A DNA stretch of 63,747 bases, the filler included, from Klebsormidium nitens (Eukaryota; Plantae; Klebsormidiophyceae), in the NCBI GenBank assembly GCA_000708835.1. It is 6 parts of 6 records of this genome, joined end to end, with 100 filler letters (N's around TTAATTAATTAA, not from the genome) between each part and the next. Parts side by side here need not be neighbours in the genome. Positions count along the whole stretch, not along the records: positions 1 to 15,384 come from DF238017.1; 5 more parts are not named here. One strand, 5' to 3'. A model generated the notes under the pieces. The model was not told the origin of the DNA. It searched no databases and saw nothing but the letters and a program-made list of their open reading frames with translations. This document shows, in pieces, positions 1-47,928 of this stretch (position 1 is its first letter; each line of letters opens with the position of its first letter). The position numbers and the translations under genes were made by a program.

Positions 1-1
1 C

Positions 2-829
2 TCGGACTTCGGGTTCGGGGGATCCCTCCACCTCGCCGGTAGCCCCCCCTTCCACGTGGCAGGATCATTAACCGAGGCGGAAGCTACCCAGTCCAGCACA
101 GCGCGAGAGATGATTGGATTCCTAAGAATCCTTCAACAAGCCGTGCTTCTCCACCGCCCCCTCCTCTCCGGGGCAGCAGTTTTGTTGGTTGGCGATAACC
201 AGGGCGCGGTGGCCGCCGTTAACAGTATGCGCAGCGCGGCGCCGGACGTCCACGCCGTCCTCCAGGAAATCTTTACGCTCTGCTCAGAGGTAGATTTCGA
301 CGTACTCGCCCAATGGAAACCGCGGGCGGAGCTGGCTGTACAAGATGCGCTCAGCCGAGTTCCGGACGCTTCGGACTGGGGCCTTGCCCCGGCAGTCTTG
401 CAAGCTGCCTTCTCACTCTTCGGGCGGCCTGACGTGGACCTTTTTGCGTCCGACACGTGGCACGTGGCAGAGAGGTTCGTGACCCCTCGCTATATGCCAG
501 GCTGCTTTGCAGTCGACGCCCTCCGCATAGACTGGAGGACCCTTGTAGACAGAAACGAAACGGCGTGGATCTTCCCACCGGTTAGGGCATTGCCCAGTGT
601 AATTCAGTCCCTGCGTAACTTCAGGACTGACGTGATTCTGGTGGTACCAGAGGCGAACACCACCAATTGGTGGCTAGAGCTGATGCACCTAGGCAGCGAG
701 GCGACTGTGGCAGGTCCGTTAGAGATTGAGCGGTCTACAAACGCATGCATCCCAAGCAGGCGGGTGCCTGCCGGGACCGTGAACCCCGCTCTGTACAAGC
801 TTAGAGTATTCAAGATTAACTGGAAATAG
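2..829 (+). CDS. DIRS-type pol C-terminus: RNase H plus DAM-like methyltransferase (MT) domain; 5' end outside the window
   Basis: Frame is open from base 2 (SDFGFGG, RNase H first-Asp context). SSTARE, DNQGAVAAVN and QWKPRAELAVQDALSR match DIRS RNase H; DWGL..VDLFAS..AWIFPP..VILVVP..NWW matches the DIRS MT domain. Confidence 0.9.
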   Translation, partial: SDFGFGGSLHLAGSPPFHVAGSLTEAEATQSSTAREMIGFLRILQQAVLLHRPLLSGAAVLLVGDNQGAVAAVNSMRSAAPDVHAVLQEIFTLCSEVDFDVLAQWKPRAELAVQDALSRVPDASDWGLAPAVLQAAFSLFGRPDVDLFASDTWHVAERFVTPRYMPGCFAVDALRIDWRTLVDRNETAWIFPPVRALPSVIQSLRNFRTDVILVVPEANTTNWWLELMHLGSEATVAGPLEIERSTNACIPSRRVPAGTVNPALYKLRVFKINWK

Positions 830-1079
830 GAGGCGTAGGTAACAGCAAGGTACGCAGAAAGATGATGCAGGCGGCAGTCAAAGTTAGCCCTGTAAAGTGA
901 AAGTTGTCTTTAAGCTCTCATTGAGCGCTACGCACATGAAACATTCAGAGTGAACGCAAGTCGCAATTCGTCACGTTATTCAGCCAATGGCATATGCGTC
1001 AGGACATATCATTTGTTGTATTGAATCTTTGACGGCTGTGCATCGAATCGCTGCAACAAATTTGGAGTCGAATCAGTCT

Positions 1080-2219
1080 TTATTTGCGCCACACTTCCTC
1101 TACGTATAGTCGGAAGGCGGAATAAGATTTCCAACGGCCTAACTCCATCAACTCCTTAATGTTGTAGTTCAGGTTTACCGCGGCGTGCTGAACAGCGGAC
1201 CGACGGAAACTGTGCACGGTTTCACCTTCGAACAACCCCGCTTCTTTAAGCCGCCTCTGCAGCCTTTTCCTAAGTGTATCACTGCTCATCGGCTCATTAA
1301 CGAAGCCGGTCCGGCTTCTGTTCATGGCCCGGAACAGGAACCCTTCTTCGCCAACCGCATGCCCAGCTTCTACCATTCCGAGGAGCAGCGCCTCAGCAGC
1401 CTCCACGAAGGTCAGCCGATCCTGCGAGTCCGGCGCCGCAAGCGGAATCCGCGCACTCGGCTCCTGCCGGACTGTCTTACTCCAACCCGGGTAGGCCGCC
1501 TGCTCCTCTAACTCCACTTGCCGTCGTTGCAGCTGCCCACACTCCTTCCCGCGCGCAAGTGTCTCCCAGAGGTACAAGACAGCCGCTTGGTCGGACAGCA
1601 GCACGCACCGTTCCAGGCCCGGTGAACTTTCTCGGAGAAGCCGCGCTAGATGCGCTAGCAAAGCGTCCAGCTTCACCTCGGTGAAGACTTTCGCCCGCTG
1701 AACTCTCACCCCCTGCTCGTGCAACAATTTTTCGTAACCCACACGAAAGGATTTCACCACCTCCGCTTTCGCAGGATTGTTCCGCCCTTCGTAGCCGAGG
1801 AGAGAGTAGGACTTCGACAGGTCCTTGACCACGTGGGTTACCGCGGAAGCTGACGGAACGGTTTTTCCTGTCCCTGGCAGCTTGGTCCGGCACCCGGCAC
1901 TATGGCTGGGGATCCAGTCCCCCATAACAAACGCTCCCACATCCGCAGAAGTAGCGGTCTCGACCGTGACGCCGAAGGCATTACGAGCGAGGAACTCCTG
2001 GTACTGCTGAAAAGTCCGTTTCCGACTACTGTTGCTCGCTTCGTTAACACTCTTCTCCGCGATCTTTCCGAAGCTATTGAGAGCCCCCTCATAAAACCGC
2101 TGCGTCTCCCCCGCACTCATTCTCTCACTTGCTGTGCAGCTCCCACCCAAGCCCACCCCACGGATGGCGCGCAACTGCGCCTCGCACTTCCGCTGGAACT
2201 CCTCCCTGCAAAACACCAC
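1080..2219 (-). CDS. Tyrosine recombinase of the DIRS-like element, convergent with pol
   Basis: 379-aa intronless ORF with LARGKE (catalytic R), WSKT (K), HSFRR (HxxR) and GRWKSYSAFRLY (W, Y). Confidence 0.9.
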   Translation of the reverse strand: MVFCREEFQRKCEAQLRAIRGVGLGGSCTASERMSAGETQRFYEGALNSFGKIAEKSVNEASNSSRKRTFQQYQEFLARNAFGVTVETATSADVGAFVMGDWIPSHSAGCRTKLPGTGKTVPSASAVTHVVKDLSKSYSLLGYEGRNNPAKAEVVKSFRVGYEKLLHEQGVRVQRAKVFTEVKLDALLAHLARLLRESSPGLERCVLLSDQAAVLYLWETLARGKECGQLQRRQVELEEQAAYPGWSKTVRQEPSARIPLAAPDSQDRLTFVEAAEALLLGMVEAGHAVGEEGFLFRAMNRSRTGFVNEPMSSDTLRKRLQRRLKEAGLFEGETVHSFRRSAVQHAAVNLNYNIKELMELGRWKSYSAFRLYVEEVWRK

Positions 2220-2274
2220 TGAACACTGTTATTTCCAATAATTGTCGTTTGGGCAAACGATTGTCTTTTTGGGG

Positions 2275-3256
2275 CGGCGTCTTCGGCACTTCGGAGGCGC
2301 TTTGCAGCCGTCCGGGCGCCCCCCAACACCCCTATCGGAAGGTTGACATTGAATGGGACTGACATCTCTAACCTTATGATTGGTCAGAAAAGTGTTCTTA
2401 TGATTTTAGTCATCGGAATGCTCGCGCGTCGAGCGATGAACAGCCAGCGGCCGCAGTTCCGTTGGATTACGCAGGAAATTTAAGCGCGGAATGCGTCACC
2501 CCGCATCATAGCTGTGCGCATGACCGGGGTTTAGACCACCGCGGCCGCCTGACCGCACGCACCGCGCGCGGCCGCAAGAAGACGCGCTGGCGACCGCGGG
2601 CAGCCCTCACCGACAGGGAGACGTCTTGTTCAAGTAAAGAAGACGTCCTCCTTGCTTTCGAACATTACAGAGAGAGCGCCAGTGGCGCCTCCTAGCTAAC
2701 TCTACGCTTCTTTCGAGAAGCTTCGCTTCGACCCTTCCCACCCACCCTGGAAAACAATTTAAAAGCTTAATCACTTACCTCTCCTCTGCTTCCTCTGCCA
2801 GCCGGCCCAGCTCTGCTAATGCAGCCTCCATGAGTCAACCGCCACTGCGCCTGCTGTACTCCACGTTCCTGAGCGTTACCAAGGCAGTGACGTCTAACTT
2901 ATTTGATTCTCCTTATCGCCTGCGGCGGCCCATCGACGCGCGCGCCCATCCCCCCAAACCCCGACGCCTCCCGACCGTCGATTTCGACACCGCGAATGTC
3001 AACACCACTAAATGTCAACCTTCGGTCCGCGGCGACCCCCGGCGCCCAATTCCACGCACCCGGTCGCCGTACTGTCCCGGACGCTCATACGCTGTCCTCT
3101 GGTGCCCCTATGCCTTACCCGGCGTCTTCGGCACTTCAGAGGCGCTTTGCAGCCGTCCGGGCGCCCCCCAACACCCCTATCGGAAGGTTGACATTGAATG
3201 GGACTGACATCTCTAACCTTATGATTGGTCAGAAAAGTGTTCTTATGATTTTAGTC
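2275..3256 (+). repeat. 137-bp direct repeat pair at 2275-2411 and 3120-3256 (1 mismatch), candidate split-direct-repeat B1/B2
   Basis: Direct alignment CGGCGTCTTCGGCACTTC...TGATTTTAGTC, offset 845 bp. Confidence 0.95.
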
Positions 3257-4834
3257 TTCATGTCCGATAGACTCCCGTCTTCTCCAGAGCCACCAGGGGA
3301 TAGGCCAGGCCCAAGCTGCAACCCTGTACTGACTTGCAGGTTCGTGCCCCTTCTTCAACATTGCCAGTTAATTTAAACTCCAGAGTTTCGACGGAAGCTT
3401 AGGTTGAGGGCGGTTTTTGTGAACCAAGTCTGCAGGTTCAAGCTCAGCTGCAAAAGCGTTCTTTACAAACGCCAATCAAAATTGACTTGTCATGTTGAGT
3501 GGCGCCTTACGCATTGTAGCCTAGCTGCAATGGCGCGCTGCGTCAGCCTGCTAACGCCTTGCGCTAAGTGCGCCAGCTGTTGGTGGCTTGAACGAATCAC
3601 TGGGTGGTTGCACCACATTGCACGGCGCAGCTGGCAGCTGCAAGAAGTGGTGCTGCTTGGCGTTTTTCAGCTGCTGTTTGAGCTGGTAGTGCAAGTTGGC
3701 GCTGGCAAGAGCTGGCGCCGGCCGGCAGCAGGTGACTTTGTTTCAGGGGTAGATGCTGAGCTGGCGGCGGCAGGAGCTGGCGCGGTGGTGGCATGGCATG
3801 GCCGCCTCAAGTCACCATGTTTGCCATGTGGCTAATATCCACCTCAGCTTGGAAGCTCCAAGAACCATCTTCAGAAACAGAGAGGTGCTTAGTCCTGCAT
3901 AGAAGCATCTTCAAGGGGCAGAGCATGCAAGAAGAGCAGCAAGGAAAAAACGTCTAGTTGTCTTGACACGGGGGGCAGAGACGCACAAGCACAATAAGAG
4001 CGGCACGCTCCTGTCAGCGATTGGTAAGTACCAATTTTCTCTCCAATGCCTGTGCTGTCACCATGTCAATCGTTTTTGATATGCTCTGCATGCTCTGCTT
4101 TTCTGGTCAAGAGAAGGATCACGGCACATGCAAGACAAGTGCCGGGGTCTGGCGCCAGTGGCGTTGCTCTATTGTGCGCTTGCTTTTGGACTGATTGGGA
4201 TCTTGCTGGGGCTGAGGCCCGCTGTCTCATTGAGATGGTGCTCTATGTTAGAGCTGCTTTGCAGCCGATTGTCGGGCTGACGCCACTGCTGTTGTTGATT
4301 GTGCGCATGCTTTGGGGCTGATTGGGGCTTGCCAAGGAGCCGTTTTTGGACCTTGCTAGGGCTGAGGCCCCCTGTCTCGTACAAGGTTGTGCTCTCTGTT
4401 GGAGTTGCTTCGCAACCTTGCTTGCTATGGGCCTATTAATAGGTGCTTGCCATGGGCTTAATTTGTCGCGCGCTGTTGGGTGGACTTGGGGCCCGCTGTG
4501 GAGCTGCTTTCAGACCCTCTGTCAAGCTGGCGTTTTGCTCAGTCTGGGGCTGAATTGGCAAGTGCTATGAGGCTGATTTGTCGTGCTGTTTCGAGCTGAC
4601 TTGGGGTTCGCTGTGGGGCTTCTTTCGGGCTCGGCGCTGTCGGACTGACGTGTTGCTTGCAGTGGGGCTGATCTGTTGCTTTGTTGGGCTGATTGGTGCC
4701 TCCTGTGGGCTGCTTTCAGGCCGCTGATCCAGGGCCTACTGAAAACAAGCCAAAATCTTTTTCCATGTTTCAAGGTCCATGCTCACAGTGCCACGTGAGC
4801 ACTGACTCGATCTCCGCGCCTTGAATTGCAGACG

Positions 4835-7800
4835 ATGGAACAGTATGAGCCTTCAAGCCCGGCCTACTCTTGCCAAGGAGCATCCAAGGAAGGGACGACC
4901 AAGCGACCGGCAAACAAGAAGCGTCGGCGCAACAACGTGAGGGATCCACAGCTCCACGACACAGCTACCTCCAACGGCGGGCCCAGTCTTGAAGAGATGC
5001 AGGTGAGTACAGCTCTAGCCTCGCCCGGTTGCTCAGATATGCTTTCGATATCTCATGATTGTAGACAATTTTGTGCATGCTTTGAAATGGAGATGTGACA
5101 ATCTGCTGTGCGCCAAGTGGTGTGGCATGGTAGCTTGGTTCTTGCGCACTTGGATGTGTCCAAAACTGGCAGCTTTCTCGCACTTGATCAGCCGTCAAGA
5201 TTGTTTTAAAAAGTCACCCCATGTTGCTGAAGCTTTGATACCTCGGACGCTCAGCAGCAAACAACCGATGCATGTACATCTCTCATCTCTTCCAGGTCAA
5301 TGAAACCCAAGCTAGGGAAGTGCTCAAAGCACGGCCCGAACTCTTGGAAGCGATGCCACAGGATGACCAGGGTGGAGGGGAGATTGACAGCGCCCCTGAT
5401 GCGGTAAGACTGGATGCATTGAAGCCATTTTTCCAAACCTGATTGGCAAACAGGGCACCAACTCGAGCGCCTTGTCTGTCGTCAGCTGCGTCTCTTGCTT
5501 GGCTTAAGGTGGACAAAAACCAACAGCAAATTGGTTCTATTCCCTTCTCATTAAGCCCCCTTCCCAGCAGACAAGGCGAACAGCAAAGACTAGTGGAACT
5601 TCTACTGTAGCTGGCCGGCTACTGCTGCCCTCCTCTGGTAGACACTTTAGACAGAGATACGCGTCTCTTCTGTTGTCATTCCTCATTTTATGCTCTCCCT
5701 CTCCAGGCAAAAAGTGCCTCTGTAGAAGAAGGACCCTGCTCGCTTAAGCTTTGGCCTGATGCAAGCGCGCACACTGCATATCATCATATGGACGAGGCAG
5801 AGGGCAGCGCTGCCGATGGTGTGCAGCCGATGCTGACCCCCGTGAGGATCAAAGTGAGAACAACATCTTGAAAGCCCGATTCTCCCTTAGTAACAGCAGA
5901 CAGGATGAACGGCAGAGACACGTGGTTTGCTATCGCCGCCCCAAGCCTCACGCACTCTGCTGTCTGTGCTCGGGCTAACGGGAAGGACAGGAAAGACAGG
6001 TCTTTCTCATGTCGAGATTCACAATTTCGTGCTCTCTCTTTGCAGGTGACAGGCAGTTCTAAGGAGAAAGGGGGTGGGTCGCCTGGTGCAAGCGCGCACA
6101 TGGAAGGTCGCGTGCACGCTGTGGAAGGTGGCGCCGCCGATGGTGCACAAACAAGCGGGGTAAGTCTTGACGAAACACCGGTCAAACGACCCAACTCTTA
6201 TGCACCCCTTGCGCTTGGGACTCTTCCTGAAGGAGCAACAAACAGGACGGACAGCAGAGACACGTGTGTCTTCTATCGTTGCCCATGTTCTCAAGCATGT
6301 CGCCGTCTGTGCTTTGATGGACAGGACGGACAGCAAAGACACTTTTCCTTCCTGTCGCCGTTCATACTTGTGTGCACTTGGCCGTCTGTGCTCTGGCAGG
6401 CAGGTAGAAGAGACAGCAAGGACCGCAAAGCAACGTGATCCTCCTGTCCTTGTTCATGACTCGCTCCTTTCCCCCTGCAGGTGGCATGCGTTTCTGCAAA
6501 AGAAGGGGGTGATTTGCCTGGTGCAAATGCGTGCATGGAAGAGAATGCCGGAGCTAGCGATGCGGAGTCGCAAGCGGACTCGTCCTGCAACCCGGGGGCC
6601 GGGGGGAGCTCCGAGCCGGCGTCTCCTTTCGAGGAACCGGACCTGGCGGACCCCGAGCTTCGGTCGGAGGTGGTGCGCGAGCTCGAGAAGCTGCTGTCGA
6701 CCTGGGGCGACAACACCTCGATCTTCTGCGCCGCCAAGCCGTCCTCCACGGGCCCTGGGGCCGTCTACGAATTCTGGATCGCGCCTGGCGGCCGCGTGAC
6801 GTGCCCCTACTTTCCGGCATCTCGCGCGAGGGTGCACGACAGCACCAACTTCGGGCTTCTGCGGCGGGGGTTCGAGGTGACGTACATCTGCCACGGAGAG
6901 AGCTGCAAGGCCACCCCGCGGTCGGGCAACTTTCGCCTGGGCGTCCTCATTCTGCCAATTGCCGCGGCCTTTGGCGACAGCCAGCCCTTGAACAGTGAGA
7001 GGGACCACCTGTACTCCGACCGGCAGCTGCTGCCGCTGCCCTTCCTTCGAGAGAATCTGAACGTCAAGAAAGGTGAGTCGAATGGTTATCAATCAGTGCT
7101 CACTGTTTCTCGTGAAGGCGTGACTGGAAGTCACGCCTATGAAGCTCTTAAGTTACAGCTTGCAATACTACCCCTTTCTTTGAGAATGCTGTGGTAGGCC
7201 AGGCCTACGGTTGCTACCTACAATCGCATTCTAGGTTTCTACTCTTTGCTCGCTTAACTCGAGCATACTTGCAGATGTCATTTTGCCCTTTGATAACGTG
7301 ATAACTTCTAGGAAGCACTTCTTGTTTGTATTTGTGCACATGAGATTTCTGTATCTCTCTGGACTTGGATAGCAATAGTTGCTGCCAAGCTACAACTGGT
7401 CACTCCCTAAGGCTCCTTTTCAGTGATTCTCGCACGTTTCTGTTCTTCAGTCTGACAGCAATAGTAGCTCTCGAGCTATGATTGGTCCCTACAACTGCTT
7501 TTTAGCTACAAATCTCGCACTTTGTGCGTGCCCTTTACTTCTGCAAAGCTGTTGGCGAGGGTATGTAGTGCTTCTTCCTCAAACAGAGAGTTCTTTGTAC
7601 CTGCAGGAGACGTTGGTGGCGCCATCATCCTGGAGCGCCTCTACGTGCGGACGGGCCTGAAGTTTGCCTTCACCTCCTCGGGCTCGTTCTATTGGTCCGG
7701 TCGCTGCTGGGCCAAGGACGAGAGCGGCGGCCGGATCCTGCGGGTGCTCCGCGAGGAGCTCTCCAAGATCGAGGCCGCGTACATGCAAGAAGCAGAACAG

Positions 7801-10313
7801 GGGGAGGGAGAAGGGCGTTCGATCGTCATGGCCGACGGACCGGCAGGCGATGAAGACAGCGGGTTGGGCGCGAAGGGAGGCCCTCCAATCAGGTCGAAGC
7901 CGGCGGGTGGCGGGAAGCAGTCCAAGCCGGAGAAGGAGGAGAGGCTGATCAACATCAATTTCAATGCAAAGATGTCCAATATCCTGGGCACGTGCAAGGA
8001 ATACTTCTATCAGCCCGGCTTCCAGTCCCTCCTGGACGTGCAGAAGGACTTTCTGGCTGTGGCGAACGGCGTCATCGACTTGCGGACTGGCGAGCTGCTC
8101 CCGCATTACCCCCGAGTGAGTGATGATTTCGTGCTCGCGCAAAGATGCAGATCAGGCTAGGGACTTCATCGAGAAGTTTGGATCATGGAGGCATTGGCCA
8201 GATCCACCGGCCAGCCGGTAGACCTCCTTATTCAATCGACTAGCACTAGGCCGAACCCTTTCAAAGGCTCTGGCGACTCTCCTAGCCCTTGCTCCCCAAG
8301 GGTTGCTTTTGTTGTGAAGCCCTCGGCAGATGAGATTGCCGTTTGTGCCGTCTTTGCTGTCCGACATTCTCATGGGTCTGCAATTTGCACTGCAGTTCAT
8401 GAACAGCCGGGTGATCGACTGGCCGTACCCTTGCGCTGGGTTGTCATTTCCGAGGGGCGACATGGTACGGTTCTTGGAGGACATCATGCACGCCTCCGGA
8501 GAGGATGGGCCGGCCGCTCTGGAGCACCTCCAGGTACTGCTGGGGTACGGGCTGACTGGTCATACAAGCAATCAGGTAGGTGCTCCTTTCAAGTGCTTCA
8601 TGGACTTGATGTATTCACGGGCTCCTTGAAACTTCAACAGCCCAACAATCGCATGAGGTCTTTGGCCATTAGCACGGGATCCTCATTGACCAATTGCTAT
8701 AAGACCAAATGCTGTGAGACTACGTTGTGAAGGATTGCGAATCTTTGGCCCATCGACTGCCACCCATTTATGCGAAGGTCTCGGCGCTTCCCCCGTTTTG
8801 TGGTGAAGGTCACAACAGAGGACTCTCGTGGAAGGTGGCCCTCCACATCTGCAGCCCTGTGAAGTCTTTTCCTCAAAATACTTCTCAGGTACTGCCGATC
8901 TTTGTTGGCGAGGGGAGTGCAGGCAAGAGCGTTTTCCTCGCCCTGCTGCGCAAGCTCCTCGGCGCCGCCTTCAAGAATGTCGGCAAGGAGATTCTGGTGA
9001 ACTCAAAGGGGCAGCGAGCCGCCCACAAGGGGGCCGCTTCGCCGCTCGAAGCGGGTGAGACTCCACCAGAACGTCCTCTTTCTCCAAAAGTCAAATATGA
9101 TGCTGCATCTCATTCGGTTAGGGATGCATGACAGTTTGTCTGATGGCAAATTATCGTGTTGGTCTTGTCGATCCTGTCTGATCGTCCTGCAAACTACAAT
9201 GTCCTGACTCAGCATTTTACCTCATCGAATATTGTCGGAAATGCAATGATCAGTCCGCCAGCAGATTCTCGTGTCCGTCCTTTCGATCCTGTCTTCTGGG
9301 CTATCCAATCTGTGTGTTTTTATCGGAACATCTTTGCTTTTTGTGCAGGGCTTGCTGGAGCGCTACTAGCGGTGGTCGAAGAGACCGACAGATCCGATAC
9401 GCTTAACGAGGCCGCTATGAAAAAGCTCACCGGCAGCGATGTCATCACCGCTCGGCCTTTGTTTCGGGACTATGTTACCTTCACCGCAACCGTTCTGGTG
9501 AGGCCAATGTATGTTCGTCCGCAATCTATTGCACAGCATGGATTGCGATCGAACTCTTGCACTTGAATGAAGATCAGCAGCAGTAGGACTTGATCTCTTG
9601 TCAGCGGCAAGAGGGCTTGATCTCTTGTGGCATGCTCGAAGTTGCTGAAGTGAGCCAACCAAATTCTGATTGCGCCTTCTTCGCCCCATTTGCAGCTCAT
9701 CATCTGCACGAACTACCTCCCGAGGACGGACAAGACCTGGTCCGTTGCCCTCCGGCGCCGCCTCCAGCTGGTTTGCTTCGTGCGGCGCTACTTCTCGCCC
9801 CACGAGAAGGGGTACGATCCGGCCAACCCGTTGCACGGGCTGGTGGACACGCGACTCCTCACCAAGCTGAGCACCTTGCAGAACATGCAGGAGTTGCTCG
9901 CATGGCTGGTTGCAGGAGCGGTGAAGTGGTACCAGAACGGACAGCAGCTGTACCCCATGCCGAAGCGGAGCATGGACGCCCTGCAGGACTACGAAGAGGC
10001 GGCGGACGATTTCGACAACTTCGTCCTCAACAGCTGCGTCAAGGGCGATGACCTCTTCATCTCGACGAGCGATGCCCTCAAGGTGTACAACGACCCGCAG
10101 AGGATGGTGGGCGGCAAGTGCGTCGGCCATATTCCCTCGCTTGACACCAAGTCGCTGAAGTCGGCAATGAACAACCACGGCTTCTCGGGTCCGGACAAGC
10201 CCAGCAAACTTGGCCTTGGTGTAAAGTATTGCGGCGTAACGGAGCGAGGATATAAGGGTCTTGCGCTGAAAGCCCTAGAGGTTAAGACGGAACAGGAGGA
10301 GAGGAACCATTGA
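4835..10313 (+). CDS. Spliced D5-like SF3 helicase, about 912 aa: low-complexity N-terminus, UL52/PrimPol-type Zn finger, D5_N, SF3 helicase
   Basis: Exons 4835-5002, 5296-5403, 5707-5841, 6046-6159, 6481-7072, 7607-8115, 8396-8575, 8889-9054, 9349-9497, 9696-10313 (2739 nt, GT-AG, phases consistent). Motifs: LAVANGVIDLRTGELLPH (D5_N), LQVLLGYGLTG, Walker A GEGSAGKS, Walker B AVVEE, KKLTGSDVITARPLF, motif C IICTNYLP, Arg finger ALRRRL. The first four exons are less certain. Confidence 0.85.
5890..6430 (+). repeat. Degenerate ~80-bp intronic repeats containing GTCTGTGCT...GGACAGGACGGACAGCA(A/G)AGACAC
   Basis: Copies near 5960-6000, 6240-6270, 6303-6345 and 6381-6430, in introns 3 and 4 of the D5 gene. 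Confidence 0.7.
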
Positions 10314-10399
10314 ATACTCGTGGTTTGGAAGATCGGCCAGGATTGATTGTATTAAGTGAAACTTAAGTACTTTAGGCTGTTGTTTAGTGTGAATGTCGT

Positions 10400-10690
10400 A
10401 TCTTTCCCGGTATGGCCTTACATACATACATATTGGCAATTGGATCCCACAAGGAAAACCTCGTACTACTAATCTGTCATATTCTCTTCTCCAAAAAGTC
10501 CATTACAACATTGCATCTTTTCCGGTATAGCCTTACATACATACATATCATCAATCCAGAACCAAAGGGAAAAGTTTGTACTACTAATCTGTTATAATTC
10601 CTTCCCTGGAGAAGAAAGAAATTATAACGGATTATAGTATAAACTTTTCGGATCTCGGCCGAGGTTGCTAATATGTATGTATCTAAGGTT
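10400..10690. repeat. AT-rich ~80-bp unit: two direct copies (10400-10480, 10515-10598) plus one inverted copy (10621-10688) forming a hairpin
   Basis: CCTTACATACATACATAT...GTACTACTAATCTG repeats at an offset of 115 bp. 10621-10688 (ATTATAACGGATTATAGTATAAACTTTTC...ATATGTATGTATCTAAGG) is the imperfect reverse complement of 10531-10598, with a 22-nt loop. Confidence 0.85.
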
Positions 10691-10769
10691 GGGCCGCCAC
10701 TCTCACATGTCGGCCGGCTTGGTTGTAGCGTACGAGGAATCGTACGACTAAAGCATAAAACGGCTGGAC

Positions 10770-11285
10770 ACGTGTATCTTCTGTCCATCCTGTCCTCCTT
10801 TCAATTCGTTTAATAAAGATTCACAATGTTCAAACAATCTCGGTGGTCCAGTCAAGTGCAAGCCGGACTTGGACACGAGCATTTCCTGTCCGTCCTGTCC
10901 TCCTGTCGACTCGCTCCATGAATTACAATATTCCACTCAGATTAGGTGGTATGGTCAAGTGGGACCCGGACTTAATTGGACACGAGCATCTCATGTCCGT
11001 CCTGTCCTCCTGTCGACTCGCTCCGTGAGTCACAATATTCAACTCATATTAGGTGGTATGGTCAAGTGGGAGCCGAACCTGGACCCGAGCATTTCCCGTT
11101 CGACCTGTCATCCTATTGACTCGCTCCATCAATTACAATTTTTGCAACATATCAGGTGGCATGGACGGTCAAGTGAAAGTCGGCCCCGGACTCGGGCACA
11201 AAGATCACCCGGTCCGTCCCGTCCTCTTGTCGACTCGCTTCATCAATTACAATGTTCGCAACATATGAGGTGGTATGGTTAAGTA
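10770..11285. repeat. Tandem repeat, ~103-114-bp unit, about 5 copies
   Basis: (A/C)GGTGG(T/C) anchor at 10841, 10944, 11051, 11154 and 11268; units carry GTCCGTCCTGTCCTCCTGTCGACTCGCTCC or variants. Confidence 0.9.
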
Positions 11286-11296
11286 TAAGGTGACCT

Positions 11297-11905
11297 TTGG
11301 CCACACCATGGAAACGGTGTATTCCTTTTTTCTTGGTGCACCGTAGAAACCTTGACTTGAATGGACGCAATTTTGGGCTATCGTCCTCCAACCACTTTTG
11401 CAATCGAGCTGTTTTGGAGAGTGGAAAGACCGCAATAGTGAGATCTTACAGAGAGTTTGGGATGCTTGAAACCATTCTTGATCCAGCAGCCCTTGCAGGA
11501 ATCCGCGCTCTTGCAGAACCATTCAACTTGCGTCATATTACCAGAGCGCTCGTGCGATCTCTGAATGCTGAAGGATTTCACTCATATTGGGATCGAAGCG
11601 GCATCCACGGCCCATTTGCTGTCAAGGTCAGTTGGCGGGTTGCTCTCAAGAACGCATCTCGCGCTCAACGTCAAGCAAAGAAGCTACACTCAAAGGAATC
11701 CCGATTAAAAAACATGTCGCATGAACGAGAGTCAATCCTTCCAACCGCTTGCACAGACATCCGTGCCCGTTCTCCATTGAGTGCCCAATATGCCCCTAGC
11801 ATGGTGTGGAGTGATGCGCCAATCTTGGAATTAGAGGCGCTTGCAAACCCCAACAAGGTTTGCCATGCCACCGAATCTTCACGGGATGCCTCTCCTAGAT
11901 ACTGA
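11297..11905 (+). CDS. Hypothetical protein (first ATG at 11462)
   Basis: Only a 202-codon open frame between the repeats and the recombinase; no recognisable motif. Confidence 0.3.
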   Translation: MATPWKRCIPFFLVHRRNLDLNGRNFGLSSSNHFCNRAVLESGKTAIVRSYREFGMLETILDPAALAGIRALAEPFNLRHITRALVRSLNAEGFHSYWDRSGIHGPFAVKVSWRVALKNASRAQRQAKKLHSKESRLKNMSHERESILPTACTDIRARSPLSAQYAPSMVWSDAPILELEALANPNKVCHATESSRDASPRY

Positions 11906-12164
11906 ATTGCTAAGAGGCTCCGTTTTGGAGATTGTGTACACCTATATTCGTGTATCTGGCAAAAGTCGGACATCGGCCGATAGTGGAGTGGCGTAAAAGC
12001 CCCTATGTCGGGTTTTAGAAGCTTTTGCGTGTGAGATAACCATGAAAAGCTCCTAGGCGCACCAAAACGGTGAAAACAAAGATGAACACGGATATTCGGT
12101 ATCTGAGCACTTTGTGGCCAGATGCCGTTCATCTTTAATTTCTTGGTATCCTGATATCAGGAGC

Positions 12165-13217
12165 ATGGCAGCTTCAGATGCAAACACAAAGGTTATAGCA
12201 ACTTTGTCGTTAGCAGAACGGCTGCTTCACGAAATCTTTGATGACTCGACACGAAAGCCGCACACGGTCGAGCAGTACTGTGCACGAGTGATGCGCCTCT
12301 TCAAGAGGATGCATGCTCCAAGAGAGGACTTCGAGTCACTTGAGTGGGTCCGAGATACGACCCGTATCATTGAGTTCCTTGATAGCGTATATTCCAATAA
12401 ACTACCGACCCAAGCAACGAGCATCAGCCCTCTCCTTGTTATTGCTCGGAAACTATGGCCCAGTGATCAACAGACCTACGAGGCACTTTTCAAGAGATTC
12501 ACTTCGGTGAGAAAGGCCATGGAAGAAGCTCGACCACCCCAGCACATGTCGGAACGAGAAGCCAAGAATTGGAGATCGCTAGATGATATTAATCAACGGC
12601 GCGTCGAGCTTCAACGGAGGGTCAATCGATCTATTGCGCCAAAGAAACCAGAAGAGGTCACGGTTGGGGACAAAGTGACGCTCTGCCGCTACCTCGTGCT
12701 CTGTTTGTACACACAAATGCCGGCGATCCGTAATGATTGGAGCAATCTTCCCATTGTGCGCTTCGAAGAGGTTGGGAGCACTGCCGCGCGTGAGCTCATG
12801 GCGGGATCTCGCAACTACCTCCTGGAGTATGCAAAGGGCAGCTATAGGCTCCACCTGAAGTCCTACAAAACCGACAAGAAGCACGGACCGCAAATTCTCG
12901 ACATACCGGTCCGGCTTTGCAACGTGATTGCGGAAAGTCTTGATATTTTTCCGCGAAAGTACCTGCTCAGCCGAATGAGGACACCGGACGCTCCAATGGG
13001 GTCCGGCTACTTGACCAAGTTTCTGGCGGCAATTTACCCCGATTCAAATTTGGGATCGTGCCTCCTGCGAAAGATCACTGTCAGCAACGCGATGAAGGAT
13101 GCGCCATCCCTTCAGGACAGAGACCAGCTTGCCAGGTCAATGTTGCACACGGCTCCAGTAGCAATGCGCCATTACGAACTCAAGTACAGACCCGATGGAA
13201 CTCGGATCCAATTCTAG
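12165..13217 (+). CDS. Tyrosine recombinase/integrase of the PLV/virophage (OLV11-like) type
   Basis: Intronless 350-aa ORF: LCLYTQMPAIRND (R), NYL..YRLHLKSYKTDKKHG (K), SCLLRKITVS (R), LARSMLHT (H), MRHYELK (Y). Confidence 0.85.
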   Translation: MAASDANTKVIATLSLAERLLHEIFDDSTRKPHTVEQYCARVMRLFKRMHAPREDFESLEWVRDTTRIIEFLDSVYSNKLPTQATSISPLLVIARKLWPSDQQTYEALFKRFTSVRKAMEEARPPQHMSEREAKNWRSLDDINQRRVELQRRVNRSIAPKKPEEVTVGDKVTLCRYLVLCLYTQMPAIRNDWSNLPIVRFEEVGSTAARELMAGSRNYLLEYAKGSYRLHLKSYKTDKKHGPQILDIPVRLCNVIAESLDIFPRKYLLSRMRTPDAPMGSGYLTKFLAAIYPDSNLGSCLLRKITVSNAMKDAPSLQDRDQLARSMLHTAPVAMRHYELKYRPDGTRIQF

Positions 13218-13257
13218 ACGCTCAGGCTCTTCAACCAACTCGCCACTTACCCCTCAT

Positions 13258-13593
13258 TCAGGAGACTTCGATACTTGTGAACGCACCTAAAGGGACGGTG
13301 GGGGCTTTGAATTCGCCTCCCATGTCCGAGGGGACAGCCGTCCGGGGCACATCATACCCGGCGTCTATCAAGCGTCGAATTGTGGCTTTGTGGAGCTTTC
13401 TTGTGGTTCCAGTAAGCAAGCGTTTGTATGCTTTTTGCATGAGGATGTTCTCCCGATGTCGGCCATAGTATCTTCGAACGGTCTGCGCGTGTTCCACATG
13501 GTGTTCTTTTTGGTAAGCGCGACTCGTCTCACAAACGCGGCAATGACATGGATAAGTGTCGGTGTCGATCAAAGGACTTGTGATTTGGACCAT
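13258..13593 (-). CDS. Small basic hypothetical protein with CxCxxC motif
   Basis: ATG-initiated 111-aa ORF that fills the space between the recombinase and Prim-Pol genes; CHCRVC, then VRRYYGRHRENILMQKAYKRL. Confidence 0.55.
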   Translation of the reverse strand: MVQITSPLIDTDTYPCHCRVCETSRAYQKEHHVEHAQTVRRYYGRHRENILMQKAYKRLLTGTTRKLHKATIRRLIDAGYDVPRTAVPSDMGGEFKAPTVPLGAFTSIEVS

Positions 13594-13699
13594 GACGCCC
13601 TACAATGAAGCTTCGAAAAAAAGTGGTACGAGAACGCAGATGTCAAGGGAGCGCGTTCCAACCGTCTCATATTCTTTCCTCACTGGAGTATAGAAAGGA

Positions 13700-15384
13700 A
13701 TGGCTACGTCGGATGTTGAACGGGCAAACGCCTCTCGATCCCAGGGGAAGGCTCAGACAGCCAGAGACCCCAAGGCCCTAGGACCCGTCAGCATCAGGAA
13801 CGAGATCCAACGACTCTGTAACAACGGCTTATACGCACTACCAGTGTCCGTCTCTTGGGATCGGAATAAAGGGTCGAAGCATGCTGACTTTCCTGACAAG
13901 TATGCACATATCAAAGAGACAGAGGCATGGGGGCGGTCCATCAATCAAGCGATGAAGGAAAAGCGGGATGCAAACGGGCTTGCAATACTCGCGGGAGTCA
14001 GTGGAGTGTATGTGCTAGATATTGATGTGGCTGCAAAAGGGGGAAAGCGACCAGGGACAGAGCTCTGGCAGCAACTTGTTGAGATCCACGGGGACTCACC
14101 GGAGACACTGAAAGCAAGGACCGGCTCTGGTGGGTTGTATATGTACTTCAAGCTCGACTCTCCAGGTCTCACGTGGAGACGGAATATTCAAGGTCTCAAG
14201 GTCGACGACAAAACTTTTGGCGTTGATGGAAGAGGAATTGGTGGTGTTGTGTTCGCTTCACCAACAAGCTACTTGAATGCTGACGGCGAGCTTGCAACAT
14301 ATGAGTGGCTCAGTGATGGGCCTCCTAGCACCGACGCGTGCCAAGATATGCCCATTTGGCTTGCAGAAATGATCAACAATCGTGCCGGTCATACTAGTGC
14401 GGCGACAAGCGGAGAGGAGCAGGGTGGCAAGGTTTTGGGAGCAAGCATTGATGCGTCCATGCCAGGACGTGTGGAAAGTCCAAGCTTCGAGCAAGATCGC
14501 TCGAGCCCAAGTTTGGAACCGCCACACTGCAGGGAGCTCTTGCTGGCAGAACTCTCAAAATTGCTATTAGAGAAGGCCGGCGATTCAACAAGCACGTACG
14601 CATGGTCGTTACCACACGGCCTGTACGGGACATACTATTGCTACCGGACGCATGGGCCTCGAAGGTGCTTCTTTGGCCATACGCACTCGGGGAGCAACAA
14701 CTTCAATCTGCTCAAGAGGGGACGGCATGTATACTACCGCTGCCATGGAGACGAGTGCTCGCACAAGCCCGCCAAAAAGTTAGGGGTCTTGGAGAACTTG
14801 AAGGCCGCCTTGCAAGATGCTACCGCAGATCCCGTGGATCCTCACGACGACATGCGAGTTGTCACTCAGTACACAAGGGAGACGCGAGATGTGCAGGATT
14901 TGCTGCTCAAGATCGTGATTGAGCACGCCGCTCCTCAAGCGTACGCCAATCTCGGGCGCCTCTTTGCATATATGTACATGATCGAGGGTCGAATTTTGGT
15001 GACCACGAACGAAGCAGAAAGGAGTCGAGATCAGCTCTTTTTTGTCTGGGACGGGACTTCGTGGGTACAAGACACCTCGAATCTGGTTTCGAGCGTCTTT
15101 ACATGTCAAATGGGTTGTCTCTTAACATGGTATGAGAGGCAGAGAGAGAGGTGCTTGGGCACTTTGTACGCCAGCCGCCCCGAATTAGAAGGATTTGTGG
15201 TTGACGGTGTTCTCAAGCCTCTCGACTCCGAACAAGTCAATCCCAAGCAGATGAGGAAGATCAAGATGGCTATGGAGACGTGCGCAAAGGAGCTTGATAA
15301 GATCATGCCAAGTTTTGGAAGGATCAACGTCCAAGATGTTGCTGATGTACGCAAGTGCTTGCACTCTGCTGTTAGAGAGCTGCA
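13700..15384 (+). CDS. Bifunctional primase-polymerase (Prim-Pol) plus UL52-type Zn finger plus start of a D5_N-like domain; truncated by a gap
   Basis: Intronless, more than 560 aa. GLAILAGVSGVYVLDIDV (DxD), TGSGGLYMYF, GVDGRGIGGVVFASPTSY; Zn finger RCFFGHTHSGSNNF..VYYRCHGDEC; FFVWDGTSWVQD. Confidence 0.85.
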
Positions 15385-15484
15385 NNNNNNNNNNNNNNNN
15401 NNNNNNNNNNNNNNNNNNNNNNNNNNNNTTAATTAATTAANNNNNNNNNNNNNNNNNNNNNNNNNNNNNNNNNNNNNNNNNNNN
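15385..15484. other. Artificial assembly gap with TTAATTAATTAA linker
   Basis: 44 N + linker + 44 N; identical gaps at 26276-26375, 47226-47325, 59351-59450 and 61991-62090. Confidence 0.98.
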
Positions 15485-26275: not shown

Positions 26276-26529
26276 NNNNNNNNNNNNNNNNNNNNNNNNN
26301 NNNNNNNNNNNNNNNNNNNTTAATTAATTAANNNNNNNNNNNNNNNNNNNNNNNNNNNNNNNNNNNNNNNNNNNNATGACGGCTATCCGTCAGCAGAATG
26401 AGCAAATGCGCGAGCTGGCCGTCGCTGAAGTGCAGGCACATGCGGACGCTAAAGCGATCCGGTCTCTGACTGTCGGAGCGCCTCGCAGAGGCTCGGGGCG
26501 GCAACTAGGGTACTGAACGTGAGCAATGT

Positions 26530-46900: not shown

Positions 46901-47928
46901 TGCACTTGCAACATTTGCCACAAGTCTTCTATGCTGAATTGTTTGACAATCAGGGTTTCTATTGGTGACAGTGTTCAGAGCAAGAGGCGGGATAGAAGTC
47001 ATGAATAATAATCCACAGGCCCTGTGGAGCATTTCTTTCTGATGAGACCCCCATTATCCCAGCATCTACGTACATTTGTGTTGGTGATTGGGAAGTGATT
47101 TTTATTAATTGCATGGCGGTAAAATGGTTGTAGCAGCTTTGACTGATTGCGAGTCAACAGAAGAACCCAGCCAAATTGTAACGATTACGACTGGTTAAGC
47201 CTAACCTCGTTCTCGACAGGATTTCNNNNNNNNNNNNNNNNNNNNNNNNNNNNNNNNNNNNNNNNNNNNTTAATTAATTAANNNNNNNNNNNNNNNNNNN
47301 NNNNNNNNNNNNNNNNNNNNNNNNNGCTTCTGCCACTGGTCAGCTGTACATGTAACATAGCTTCTTGAATGTCAAAATCTGAAGTAAAATCTGCAGAAAC
47401 AGACCGGTTTTGTACACAGCCGGCACTACGACCGTTCTTTGCGCCGCAGATGAGAAATTACCCCTCGGTTTTGGAGCTTCGCATGACTGGCAGAAACAAC
47501 GGCGAAGTCCCGGCAGGTCTTCCAGGAGGAATTCTTAGAAAACTTTCATGGCCTAATAGTAATTCCTAGAGATCAGACTGTGGAGCAAAAGTGAGAGACC
47601 AGCTCGCACGAAGTCATCACCTTGGTCCTTGAAGGGGCGCGCATTGGCACTAGACGGCCATCAAAAGATCCTCTGTAGACGTTTCTAAGTGACCAGCTCA
47701 CTGAGAAGTAGAGGCTGATAGCCGCCACCAAGATGCAGAAATGGCTGGTACTAGACGGGCGGTTCCATGAAGAACAGCGAAGGCGCTGGCTGGTCACAGG
47801 GTTTTCTGGTAAGATGCTGCAAGCTGCTGGCGTGTCTTCGTGCTTAAAGGTCAGGGGATGAGTTTTGACAGCTAGACCAACGCAAACAAACCAGCAGCAT
47901 GAGAATTAACTCAATCGACTCGGACATC

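What the first reader, a model, noticed from the sequence alone, without database searches (positions are those of the whole stretch)
4835..10313. Intact viral-type D5 helicase gene carrying nine spliceosomal introns and lacking a primase domain
Ten GT-AG exons join in frame to about 912 aa with Walker A, Walker B, motif C and the Arg finger all intact, and the conserved exons look strongly GC3-rich like the host genes. D5 genes of viruses and PLVs are normally intronless and fused to a primase; here the N-terminus is low-complexity sequence. This suggests long nuclear residence under selection, either domestication or a nuclear-adapted mobile element.
Basis: partly seen in the sequence, partly recalled or inferred. 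Interest (0 to 1): 0.8.

Follow-up and report, generated by a model that had tools for sequence, protein, structure and literature searches.

The report
Spliced, primase-less viral-type helicase gene family
A green alga (Klebsormidium nitens) transcribes and splices a virus-type DNA helicase gene that has ten introns and no primase; it is one of several copies, likely from a virus-derived element long settled in the nucleus.

Summary
Window 4835-10313 (+) carries ten coding exons with nine GT-AG introns, giving 916 codons. There is also a non-coding 5' exon (at least 3353-4023) and a tenth intron. Spliced contigs from six public runs of six studies show every junction. The product is a P4/D5-family helicase (D5_N plus SF3, catalytic residues at family consensus). 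Before it lie about 226 residues predicted disordered and a conserved Cys/His domain. There is no primase core.

It is not a lone domesticated gene. The organism is Klebsormidium nitens, and the gene is already deposited as hypothetical protein KFL_010680030. At least six close paralogs lie on small scaffolds. One paralog and five metagenome ORFs carry a Pfam Prim-Pol domain directly before the Cys/His domain, so this sublineage likely lost the primase core by an in-frame deletion. An intron position is conserved in primase-bearing relatives. Of 31 listed transcript variants, 25 are synonymous.

The same 15.4-kb scaffold holds a tyrosine recombinase, a Dam-like ORF, a virophage/PLV-type ORF and a second, intronless Prim-Pol gene.

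Best reading (0.55): the replication helicase of a long-resident, nuclear-adapted, virus-derived element family. Main rival (0.27): a domesticated gene family. This is a new variant of a known kind, of moderate interest.

The parts
3353..4023 (+). Non-coding 5' exon of the helicase transcript. The 5' limit is only the end of the contigs.
   Evidence: Contigs cover 3353-3632 and 3689-4022 and are joined to 4832 in 6 of 6 runs. There is an in-frame stop before the ATG at 4835.
4024..4831 (+). 5'-UTR intron (GT..AG, 808 nt) with internal repeats.
   Evidence: Joint 4022/4831 (cut +1) in 6 of 6 runs. Internal repeats found.
4835..6159 (+). Coding exons 1-4 (4835-5002, 5296-5403, 5707-5853, 6046-6159) and introns 1-3. 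They encode residues 1-179, predicted disordered, with a basic KKRRR stretch and Gly/Ala/Ser-rich repeat units.
   Evidence: Joints. pLDDT below 50. Introns 3 and 4 are 72% alike over 106 nt, consistent with tandem duplication of an exon-plus-intron unit. The number of units varies between paralogs.
6481..7072 (+). Coding exon 5. Its first 44 codons are low complexity. Positions 6613-7072 encode the conserved Cys/His (C-x10-H-x17-C-x4-C) domain. The Prim-Pol core of relatives would lie just before that domain.
   Evidence: Three Cys are invariant in 16 of 16 sequences and the motif recurs in distant relatives. pLDDT is about 90 in the full-length model. The only VIA match of Z 5 or more among 48,161 chains is the C-terminal part of a chain of the herpes simplex helicase-primase complex (Z 5.9). 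Prim-Pol lies directly N-terminal in P0285 and five JGI ORFs.
7607..8575 (+). Coding exons 6 and 7 (7607-8115, 8396-8575) with intron 8116-8395. They encode the D5_N (collar) domain, which includes a disordered acidic/Gly insert.
   Evidence: Pfam D5_N: 1.9e-9 for exon 6 and 7.2e-12 for the whole protein. Joints.
8889..10313 (+). Coding exons 8-10 (8889-9054, 9349-9497, 9696-10313 including the stop). They encode the SF3 helicase core (Walker A in exon 8, Walker B in exon 9, motif C and RR in exon 10) and the C-terminal domain.
   Evidence: NCBIfam TIGR01613, 131.1 bits against a cut-off of 108.7. PHROG primase families match collinearly. Conserved columns. VIA Z 27-28 to ASFV C962R and poxvirus D5/E5.
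1083..2228 (-). Neighbour: tyrosine recombinase ORF. The deposited model P0156 adds a short upstream exon at 2778-2831.
   Evidence: Pfam Phage_integrase 1.6e-6 and phrog_1 1.6e-9. 177 homologs found. Linkage to the helicase family is not shown.
2..826 (+). Neighbour: Dam-like N6-adenine methyltransferase ORF, open at the scaffold start.
   Evidence: Pfam Dam 1.6e-4, below its cut-off. phrog_111 3.9e-7. TIGR01712 0.019.
10765..11295 (.). Array of four to five copies of a unit of about 107 nt, just 3' of the gene. Its CTGTCCGTCCTGTCC core recurs, reverse-complemented, in intron 4.
12057..13214 (+). Neighbour: intronless 386-codon ORF of virophage/PLV type, a possible OLV11-like recombinase.
   Evidence: Atlas score 0.97-0.98 to viral clusters, commonest Preplasmiviricota; one cluster has Phage_integrase in 16% of members. 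BLASTP 1e-6 to an ORF of virophage-like contig L002, which carries Sputnik-type capsid genes. hhalign against the other recombinase family gives probability 0.5%.
13703..15384 (+). Neighbour: second primase-helicase gene. It is intronless over 560 codons (Prim-Pol, then a Cys/His domain, then the start of D5_N) and is cut by the scaffold end.
   Evidence: tblastn with P0285 gives 26% identity over 471 columns, E 1.7e-19. Pfam Prim-Pol 8e-14, 52.8 bits against a cut-off of 22.8. phrog_1156 3.6e-10. GC3 0.575.

Best explanation
This is a transcribed and correctly spliced 916-codon gene for a P4/D5-family helicase (Cys/His domain, D5_N collar, SF3 ATPase, C-terminal domain) without a primase core. 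It is one copy of a multi-copy, intron-bearing primase-helicase gene family of Klebsormidium nitens. That family is likely the replication gene of a virus-derived (polinton-like-virus or virophage type) element long resident in, and adapted to, the nucleus.

Shown here: the exon structure, the splicing, the domain content, the paralogs, the primase-bearing relatives, and the excess of synonymous variants.

Inferred:
(a) This sublineage lost the Prim-Pol core by an in-frame deletion inside exon 5. Primase-less copies keep the short stretches that flank Prim-Pol in P0285.
(b) The protein would form a ring helicase as D5, E5 and C962R do, with the Cys/His domain and collar holding DNA.
(c) Priming would come in trans, from primase-bearing family members or from host Pol alpha-primase, as with the primase-less SF3 helicases of papilloma- and polyomaviruses.
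(d) The basic KKRRR stretch in the disordered N-terminus would serve nuclear import.
(e) The copies arose by DNA-level spread of a unit of at least 7 kb that already carried its introns.
For: Gene model and splicing. Contigs with no mismatch over exons 1-3, the part that differs most between paralogs, show that this copy or an identical one is expressed.

Family membership: TIGR01613 at 131.1 bits against a cut-off of 108.7; D5_N and DUF5906; consensus catalytic residues; VIA Z 27-28 and Foldseek 3.3e-23 to ASFV C962R and poxvirus D5/E5.

Multi-copy: P0001, P0003, P0277, P0002 with P0004, and P0284 are 74-93% identical in the Cys/His domain. All but P0284 lie on contigs of 10.8-18 kb. The more distant P0006 and P0010 also belong to the family.

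Primase-bearing relatives: P0285 (Prim-Pol 1.6e-12 at residues 351-548, directly before the Cys/His domain) and JGI ORFs P0286, P0288, P0289, P0290, P0292.

Old introns: P0286, P0288 and P0292 hold Prim-Pol and the Cys/His domain in one ORF that leaves the family sequence right after the codon where exon 5 ends here. P0005 begins at the start of exon 10.

Selection: 25 synonymous to 6 non-synonymous of 31 listed variants, pN/pS about 0.08. Identity between paralogs rises from 61-65% in exons 1-4 to 89-99% in the SF3 part.

Viral neighbourhood: a virophage/PLV-type ORF and an intronless Prim-Pol gene on the same scaffold.

Published parallels, passages read: integrated PLVs of Guillardia carry AEP-S3H plus a recombinase, and other PLV S3H proteins lack a detectable primase (PMC4642659). 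Intron-rich mirusviruses lack replication genes and are predicted to be nuclear (PMC12768974).
Against: No capsid, packaging ATPase or terminal repeat was found on the 15.4-kb scaffold, so no element boundary or virion module is shown.

The recombinase is not seen with other family members. Among the K. nitens helicase-family and recombinase proteins seen, only the window's own pair shares a contig length. This is a weak test, because most contigs are short.

Expression in all six runs laid, together with a long 5' UTR that has its own intron, looks like a host gene rather than a silenced element.

Strong purifying selection fits domestication equally well.

The 31 variants are only those the tool listed (34 more were not shown) and may mix paralogs, alleles and strains.

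No genome was held, so copy number, flanks and insertion polymorphism could not be tested.

The deletion relic rests on a few short matching stretches.
Confidence: 0.55

Rival explanations
1. A domesticated host gene family. An ancient viral primase-helicase was captured, gained introns and a host-type promoter and UTR, lost its primase, and now serves the alga. One possible role is interference with replication of polinton-like viruses, virophages or giant viruses that use related helicases; another is a role in host DNA metabolism. The copies would be ordinary gene duplicates.
For: Spliced transcripts in all six runs of six studies. pN/pS about 0.08. Highest conservation in the ATPase and C-terminal domains. 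High GC3 of 0.61-0.83. Ten introns and a long spliced 5' UTR. A more distant member, P0006, lies on a 108-kb contig. K. nitens is known to hold giant-virus insertions (PMC5294986, passages read).
Against: At least six close paralogs exist, nearly all on short contigs of 10-18 kb, as expected for repeats that break assemblies. Primase-bearing and primase-less versions coexist. The N-terminus is variable, with different numbers of repeat units. The neighbours are mobile or viral genes. No test of function or synteny was possible.
Confidence: 0.27
2. Part of an endogenous giant-virus (Nucleocytoviricota) insertion: the D5 core gene of an integrated phycodnavirus-like genome, later invaded by introns during decay.
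For: K. flaccidum/nitens carries NCLDV-like polymerase, capsid, ATPase and VLTF3 genes (PMC5294986, passages and its Table 1 as printed). The best solved-structure matches are NCLDV helicases. Introns are reported in decaying endogenous giant-virus elements (PMC12768974, passage).
Against: Relatives carry Pfam Prim-Pol (PF09250). Only 1 of the 22 proteins scanned carries the C962R-type AEP. The D5 cell for K. flaccidum is empty in that survey's table. The neighbouring ORF points to Preplasmiviricota and a virophage-like contig. The gene is not decaying, given its intact frame and the selection on it. No other NCLDV marker lies on the scaffold.
Confidence: 0.08
3. A decaying, non-functional remnant that is transcribed by chance.
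For: The primase core is missing. The N-terminus is disordered and repeat-ridden. Low-depth unspliced contigs also exist.
Against: The frame stays open for 916 codons across ten exons. All catalytic residues are at consensus. 25 of 31 listed variants are synonymous. The folded part of the model is confident, with 457 of 975 residues at pLDDT 90 or more.
Confidence: 0.05

Closest known systems
Primase-helicases of the P4/D5 family: Prim-Pol or AEP, zinc-binding or PriCT domain, D5_N, SF3. Examples are vaccinia D5, mpox E5, ASFV C962R and the SaPI5 primase-helicase.
   Same: Same order of domains from the Cys/His domain onward. TIGR01613 is above its cut-off. VIA Z 27-28 over 350-490 residues. 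Catalytic residues are conserved. In E5 the domain order is primase 1-237, zinc-binding 238-322, collar 323-403, helicase, then C-terminal domain (PMC11338233, passage). In C962R it is AEP 1-272, PriCT2 285-386, D5_N, SF3, then Tail (PMC10516667, passage).
   Different: There is no primase core. About 226 disordered residues stand in its place. The gene has ten spliceosomal introns, is nuclear and is multi-copy. Identity to the solved proteins is only 14-21%.
Superfamily-3 helicases of polinton-like viruses and virophages, including integrated copies with a tyrosine recombinase.
   Same: PLV S3H proteins occur with an AEP primase or without any detectable primase. Integrated PLVs carry recombinases near their ends (PMC4642659, passages). 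A virophage/PLV-type ORF and a Prim-Pol gene lie 1.7-3.4 kb downstream. The helicase of virophage-like contig L002 matches at 4e-9 and also shows no primase by Pfam.
   Different: No capsid or packaging genes and no terminal repeats are seen here. PLV and virophage genes are not described as intron-rich in the passages I read. This gene is expressed in ordinary cultures.
Intron-rich, nucleus-adapted viruses (mirusviruses) and intron-invaded endogenous viral elements.
   Same: Gain of spliceosomal introns goes together with loss of replication functions in viruses predicted to replicate in the nucleus (PMC12768974, passages).
   Different: A different virus realm; no primase or helicase is mentioned in that paper (0 occurrences of 'primase'). 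Introns there peak near 80 bp, against 192-808 bp here. No introner-like repeat family was found among these introns.
UL52/PrimPol-type Cys-His-Cys-Cys zinc finger of AEP primases. The name and the ligand pattern are recalled, not taken from a call.
   Same: The C-x10-H-x17-C-x4-C pattern has its three Cys invariant in 16 of 16 sequences. The top VIA match is residues 907-1043 of a chain of the herpes simplex helicase-primase complex (Z 5.9, rmsd 4.7, 108 aligned). The atlas gives a weak lead (0.88) to a cluster in which 19% of members carry Herpes_UL52.
   Different: All three signals are weak. Pfam finds nothing and Foldseek finds nothing at E 0.001 or better. Here the finger stands without its catalytic partner.

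Membership tests
P4/D5-family primase-helicase, C-terminal part (TIGR01613; D5_N plus SF3) | D5_N (collar) domain | tested here: met
   Pfam PF08706: 1.9e-9 for exon 6; 7.2e-12, 46.2 bits against a cut-off of 22.4, for P0278.
P4/D5-family primase-helicase, C-terminal part (TIGR01613; D5_N plus SF3) | SF3 ATPase with Walker A, Walker B, motif C and arginine finger | tested here: met
   TIGR01613 at 131.1 bits against a cut-off of 108.7. K678, E732, N776, R791 and R792 of P0278 lie in columns where 33-36 of 41 sequences agree.
P4/D5-family primase-helicase, C-terminal part (TIGR01613; D5_N plus SF3) | Fold of the solved ring helicases | tested here: met
   VIA Z 28.0 (rmsd 3.3, 464 aligned) to 9ivf_B and Z 27.4 to vaccinia D5 8apl_A. 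Foldseek 3.3e-23. The model is a prediction.
P4/D5-family primase-helicase, C-terminal part (TIGR01613; D5_N plus SF3) | Hexamer formation, ATPase and unwinding activity | not testable with these tools
   Needs purified protein.
Full primase-helicase fusion (AEP or Prim-Pol N-terminal domain) | Catalytic AEP/Prim-Pol domain in the same protein | tested here: not met
   No Pfam or PHROG primase-domain match in exons 1-5. Residues 1-226 are predicted disordered. There is no upstream coding exon. The feature is met in paralog P0285 and five JGI ORFs.
Nucleocytoviricota core gene D5 | Placement among giant-virus D5 genes and a giant-virus gene neighbourhood | tested here: inconclusive
   No tree was made. 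Relatives carry Prim-Pol; 1 of 22 carries AEP_C962R. No NCLDV marker lies on the scaffold. The D5 cell is empty for K. flaccidum in PMC5294986.
Integrated polinton-like virus or virophage | Capsid proteins and packaging ATPase | tested here: inconclusive
   None among the ORFs of 100 aa or more on 1-15384 that were sent to Pfam (10 of the 160 ORFs listed outside the gene were left out). The scaffold ends at 15384, inside a gene.
Integrated polinton-like virus or virophage | Integrase or recombinase and primase-S3H replication gene | tested here: met
   Met for the neighbourhood, not proven as one unit. Recombinase at 1083-2228. Virophage/PLV-type ORF at 12057-13214. Prim-Pol gene at 13703-15384.
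Integrated polinton-like virus or virophage | Terminal inverted repeats or attachment sites bounding the element | tested here: inconclusive
   Only one inverted pair, of 30 nt, was found, and no bounding repeats. The element ends may lie off the scaffold.
Domesticated (exapted) viral gene | Purifying selection and expression | tested here: met
   25 synonymous to 6 non-synonymous variants. Spliced contigs in six runs.
Domesticated (exapted) viral gene | Fixed orthologous locus, low copy number | tested here: not met
   At least six close paralogs. Synteny across species could not be tested, as no genome was held.
UL52/PrimPol-type zinc finger | Conserved Cys-His-Cys-Cys ligands | tested here: met
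   Three Cys are invariant in 16 of 16 sequences; the His is present in most rows. A like motif occurs in distant relatives.
UL52/PrimPol-type zinc finger | Shared fold, and zinc bound | tested here: inconclusive
   VIA Z 5.9 to 9ut1_B residues 907-1043, the only Z of 5 or more among 48,161 chains. Foldseek found nothing. Zinc binding is not testable here.

The most novel reading that the evidence does not exclude
Klebsormidium carries an undescribed class of nuclear mobile elements descended from polinton-like viruses or virophages. Their primase-helicase gene has become a fully host-style, ten-intron gene. One active sublineage has shed its own primase and replicates, or blocks the replication of related viruses, as a helicase-only initiator that borrows a primase. 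This would be a virus caught midway to becoming a nuclear gene family in a close relative of land plants.
Probability: 0.25. Interest if true: 0.75.

Novelty: new variant of a known kind. Interest (0 to 1): 0.55.

Why it matters
Genes of endogenous giant viruses are mostly intron-poor and silent in culture (PMC11244446, passages). A viral-type replication helicase with ten introns, steady expression, strong constraint and several copies is therefore an unusual end state.

Primase-bearing and primase-less members coexist in one genome, so the loss of a viral enzyme after a move into the nucleus can be studied directly. The nearby intronless Prim-Pol gene offers a built-in comparison.

If the family is mobile, it adds a new kind of large DNA element to streptophyte algae. 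If it is domesticated, it is a candidate antiviral or replication factor in a lineage close to land plants.

The gene itself is already deposited as a hypothetical protein. The new part is the reading, not the sequence.

Tried and rejected
- Own genome: none is held, so there are no copy-number, flank or synteny tests.
- Earlier notes of this scan: nothing by place or by sequence.
- RNA holders: the tool listed no holder on record as RNA; all are 'RNA?' guesses.
- Cover outside the gene: in the four runs no contig lies on 1-3078 or 10261-15384. I draw no conclusion on silence of the recombinase, the Dam-like ORF, ORF 12057-13214 or the second primase gene.
- DNA of relatives of the recombinase: the metagenome scan with the single protein found none. 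With alignment A1 it found one distant locus, L001 (26% identity), which I did not study. The viral-contig scan with A1 found none.
- Viral-contig scans with the second primase gene and with P0071 found none.
- Exon-5 domain: Pfam and PHROGs found nothing. Foldseek against PDB found nothing at E 0.001 or better. The stand-alone model is mediocre (pLDDT 69).
- ORF 12057-13214 as a relative of the upstream recombinase: hhalign probability 0.5%. Pfam gave only Phage_int_SAM_1 at 0.031. PHROGs and NCBIfam gave nothing.
- Introner idea: the introns share no repeat family. Only introns 3 and 4 are alike, and nothing matches elsewhere in the window.
- Recombinase-helicase linkage: rejected as unproven, since contig lengths of the other family members do not coincide.
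- Deposited N-terminal extension of 59 residues (P0278): not supported by the contigs, which run unspliced through 3689-4022 with an in-frame stop.
- Literature: five full-text searches gave no paper describing this Klebsormidium gene family. I did not open the supplements of PMC5294986 (its D5 tree and contig maps), which may bear on this.

Full report
**What is there.** On the + strand between 4835 and 10313 ten open segments join through nine GT..AG introns into one frame of 916 codons plus a stop. The exons are 4835-5002, 5296-5403, 5707-5853, 6046-6159, 6481-7072, 7607-8115, 8396-8575, 8889-9054, 9349-9497 and 9696-10313. I laid the assembled contigs of six public runs from six studies on the region: X1, X4, X5 and X7, and X1, X4, X10 and X11. 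Every one of the nine junctions is bridged by spliced contigs, in 3 to 6 of the 6 runs each. One junction was printed as 8114/8395 'AG..CA'. It is the GT..AG intron 8116-8395 read from a copy that has G instead of A at 8115, a synonymous change.

The contigs also show a further, non-coding 5' exon (at least 3353-4023) spliced to 4832 in 6 of 6 runs. The joined sequence has an in-frame stop before the ATG at 4835, so no coding exon lies upstream through this junction.

The tool labels the runs only as 'RNA?'. I treat them as RNA because their contigs join exons, and because in the four runs they cover nothing of 1-3078 or 10261-15384. Contigs with no mismatch over exons 1-3, the part that differs most among paralogs, show that this copy or an identical one is expressed.

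**What it encodes.** Exon 6 matches Pfam D5_N (1.9e-9). The exons match phage primase-helicase profiles collinearly: exon 6 at profile positions 372-502 of phrog_1156, exon 8 at 559-600, exon 9 at 610-656 and exon 10 at 660-828.

The deposited full-length protein (P0278) equals my model apart from a 59-residue N-terminal extension that the contigs do not support. It scores 131.1 bits on NCBIfam TIGR01613, the P4-family primase C-terminal model, against a cut-off of 108.7.

In a 41-sequence alignment the Walker A lysine, the Walker B glutamate, the motif C asparagine and the RR pair all stand in columns where 33-36 of 41 sequences agree.

An AlphaFold2 model of P0278 has residues 286-975 mostly confident, with 457 residues at pLDDT 90 or more. 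Residues 1-285 are below 50 with no secondary structure. The model matches ASFV C962R and poxvirus D5/E5 ring helicases at Foldseek 3.3e-23 and VIA Z 27-28.

No primase domain is detected anywhere in the protein.

**The N-terminal half is two things.** Residues 1-226 are disordered. They hold a basic KKRRR stretch and Gly/Ala/Ser-rich units whose number differs between paralogs. Introns 3 and 4 are 72% alike over 106 nt, so these units grew by tandem duplication of an exon together with its intron.

The rest of exon 5 (6613-7072) encodes a folded domain, with pLDDT about 90 in the full-length model. It carries a C-x10-H-x17-C-x4-C pattern. The three cysteines are invariant in 16 of 16 sequences, and a like motif recurs in distant relatives of about 800 residues.

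The domain lies where mpox E5 has its zinc-binding domain (residues 238-322, between primase and collar; PMC11338233, passages) and where ASFV C962R has PriCT2 (285-386; PMC10516667, passages). VIA alignments to C962R start at model residue 294 and chain residue 320.

On its own the domain gave no Foldseek match. Against 48,161 representative chains its only match of Z 5 or more is the C-terminal part (907-1043) of a chain of the herpes simplex helicase-primase complex: Z 5.9, rmsd 4.7, 108 residues aligned. A protein-language-model search gave a weak lead (0.88) to a cluster partly annotated Herpes_UL52.

I read it as a primase-type zinc finger that has stayed behind without its catalytic partner. 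That reading is inferred. The name of the finger type is recalled, not taken from a call.

**Organism and family.** Protein searches name the organism as Klebsormidium nitens. The gene is deposited as hypothetical protein KFL_010680030.

The window is not one locus. It is a string of small scaffolds joined by spacers of 44 N, TTAATTAATTAA and 44 N. The gene's true context is only 1-15384, which is the contig length recorded for its protein.

Close paralogs are P0001, P0003, P0277, P0002 with P0004, and P0284 (74-93% identical in the Cys/His domain). All but P0284 are on contigs of 10.8-18 kb. P0006 and P0010 are more distant members on contigs of about 109 kb. The deposited models of the paralogs show the same exon joins.

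**The missing primase is a derived loss.** A search with the Cys/His domain found K. nitens protein P0285 (71% identical) and five metagenome ORFs (58-65% identical). In all of these a Pfam Prim-Pol domain lies directly before that domain. P0285 also has the same kind of N-terminus, with a PSSP-type start and a KRRR stretch.

Several primase-less copies keep short stretches that flank Prim-Pol in P0285 and pass straight from one to the other. This suggests an in-frame deletion inside exon 5. The inference rests on short matches.

The metagenome ORFs P0286, P0288 and P0292 run through Prim-Pol and the Cys/His domain in one ORF. They leave the family sequence right after the codon at which exon 5 ends here. 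The intron after exon 5 is therefore older than the split between primase-bearing and primase-less members. P0005, at 38% identity, begins at the start of exon 10.

**Selection.** The contigs include near-identical variants (95-99%). Of the 31 exonic differences that the tool listed or that a joint showed, 25 are synonymous and 6 are not, two of the six falling in one codon. That gives pN/pS of about 0.08 over exons 5-10. The tool did not show 34 further differences, and the variants may mix paralogs, alleles and strains.

Identity between paralogs rises from 61-65% in exons 1-4 to 89-99% in the ATPase part and 94-97% in the C-terminal domain.

**Neighbourhood.** The scaffold also holds:
- A Dam-like methyltransferase ORF at 2-826, a weak match.
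- A tyrosine recombinase at 1083-2228 on the other strand, with 177 homologs in the protein collection. Ten of the 120 listed are K. nitens proteins, the window's own among them.
- A repeat array with a unit of about 107 nt just after the gene.
- An intronless 386-codon ORF at 12057-13214.
- An intronless ORF from 13703 to the scaffold end. It encodes Prim-Pol (8e-14, above cut-off), a similar Cys/His domain and the start of D5_N. It is 26% identical to P0285.

The 386-codon ORF scores 0.97-0.98 against viral clusters, commonest Preplasmiviricota. It also matches (1e-6) an ORF of an IMG/VR contig that carries Sputnik-type major and minor capsid genes and a D5_N helicase. The right end of the scaffold therefore looks like the edge of an integrated virophage or polinton-like virus.

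I could not show that the recombinase, or any other neighbour, travels with the helicase family. Contig lengths of the other members do not coincide. No capsid gene or bounding repeat is on the scaffold.

**Reading.** It is also one member of a proliferated, intron-bearing primase-helicase family with viral relatives next door.

I favour, at 0.55, a long-resident, nucleus-adapted, virus-derived element family of the polinton-like-virus or virophage kind. One sublineage of it dropped the primase core. The protein would act as a ring helicase and would draw priming from primase-bearing members or from host Pol alpha-primase, as the primase-less SF3 helicases of small nuclear DNA viruses do. That last comparison rests on established knowledge and was not tested here.

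Domestication as a host gene family (0.27) fits the expression and the constraint equally well, but fits the copy number and the short repeat-like scaffolds less well. A giant-virus origin (0.08) and a dead remnant (0.05) are disfavoured.

**Known or new.** Published passages show three relevant things. PLV helicases occur with or without a recognisable primase, and with recombinases (PMC4642659). Endogenous giant-virus genes mostly lack introns and are silent in culture (PMC11244446). Intron-rich mirusviruses that lack replication genes are predicted to be nuclear (PMC12768974).

A survey of giant-virus markers lists polymerase, capsid, ATPase and VLTF3 for K. flaccidum but leaves the D5 cell empty (PMC5294986, passages and its table as printed). 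I did not open its supplements.

Five full-text searches found no description of this family. I rate it a new variant of a known kind, of moderate interest.

Noticed in passing
window 15385-15484, 26276-26375, 47226-47325, 59351-59450, 61991-62090: The window is a chain of at least six separate small scaffolds joined by spacers of 44 N, TTAATTAATTAA and 44 N. Genes on different pieces are therefore not neighbours in the genome.
   Followed up: yes
window 13703-15384 (+): An intronless ORF of 560 codons encodes Prim-Pol, a Cys/His domain and the start of D5_N. It is cut by the scaffold end and is a second, divergent primase-helicase gene 3.4 kb after the first.
   Followed up: yes
window 12057-13214 (+); L002 9965-10954: A 386-codon ORF is related to an ORF of a virophage-like IMG/VR contig that has Sputnik-type capsid genes. 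It may be an OLV11-like recombinase, but no recombinase profile matched it clearly.
   Followed up: partly
window 1083-2228 (-): This tyrosine recombinase belongs to a very large family: 177 homologs, of which 10 of the 120 listed are K. nitens proteins (the window's own among them), and many are metagenome proteins on contigs of up to 306 kb. What element it belongs to is unknown.
   Followed up: partly
window 2275-2414 and 3120-3259: Two direct copies of 140 nt, 99% identical and 845 nt apart, lie between the recombinase and the helicase's first exon. The deposited helicase model takes its first 43 codons from the second copy.
   Followed up: no
window 10400-11295: Two 90-nt repeats are followed by an array with a unit of about 107 nt. 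The core of that unit recurs in reverse complement in intron 4 (6319-6348), and a related short motif occurs in introns 2-4 and in intron 8 (9055-9348).
   Followed up: partly
window 17084-24175 (-), second piece: Exons match the histidine-specific methyltransferase (Methyltransf_33) and FGE-sulfatase domains. This looks like an ergothioneine-synthesis type host gene with introns.
   Followed up: no
window 49848-51143 (+) and 51307-56915 (+), fourth piece: WD40-repeat exons are followed by three long G+C-rich open frames (405, 456 and 784 codons) with no Pfam match. The longest is rich in Ser, Gly, Pro and Ala.
   Followed up: no
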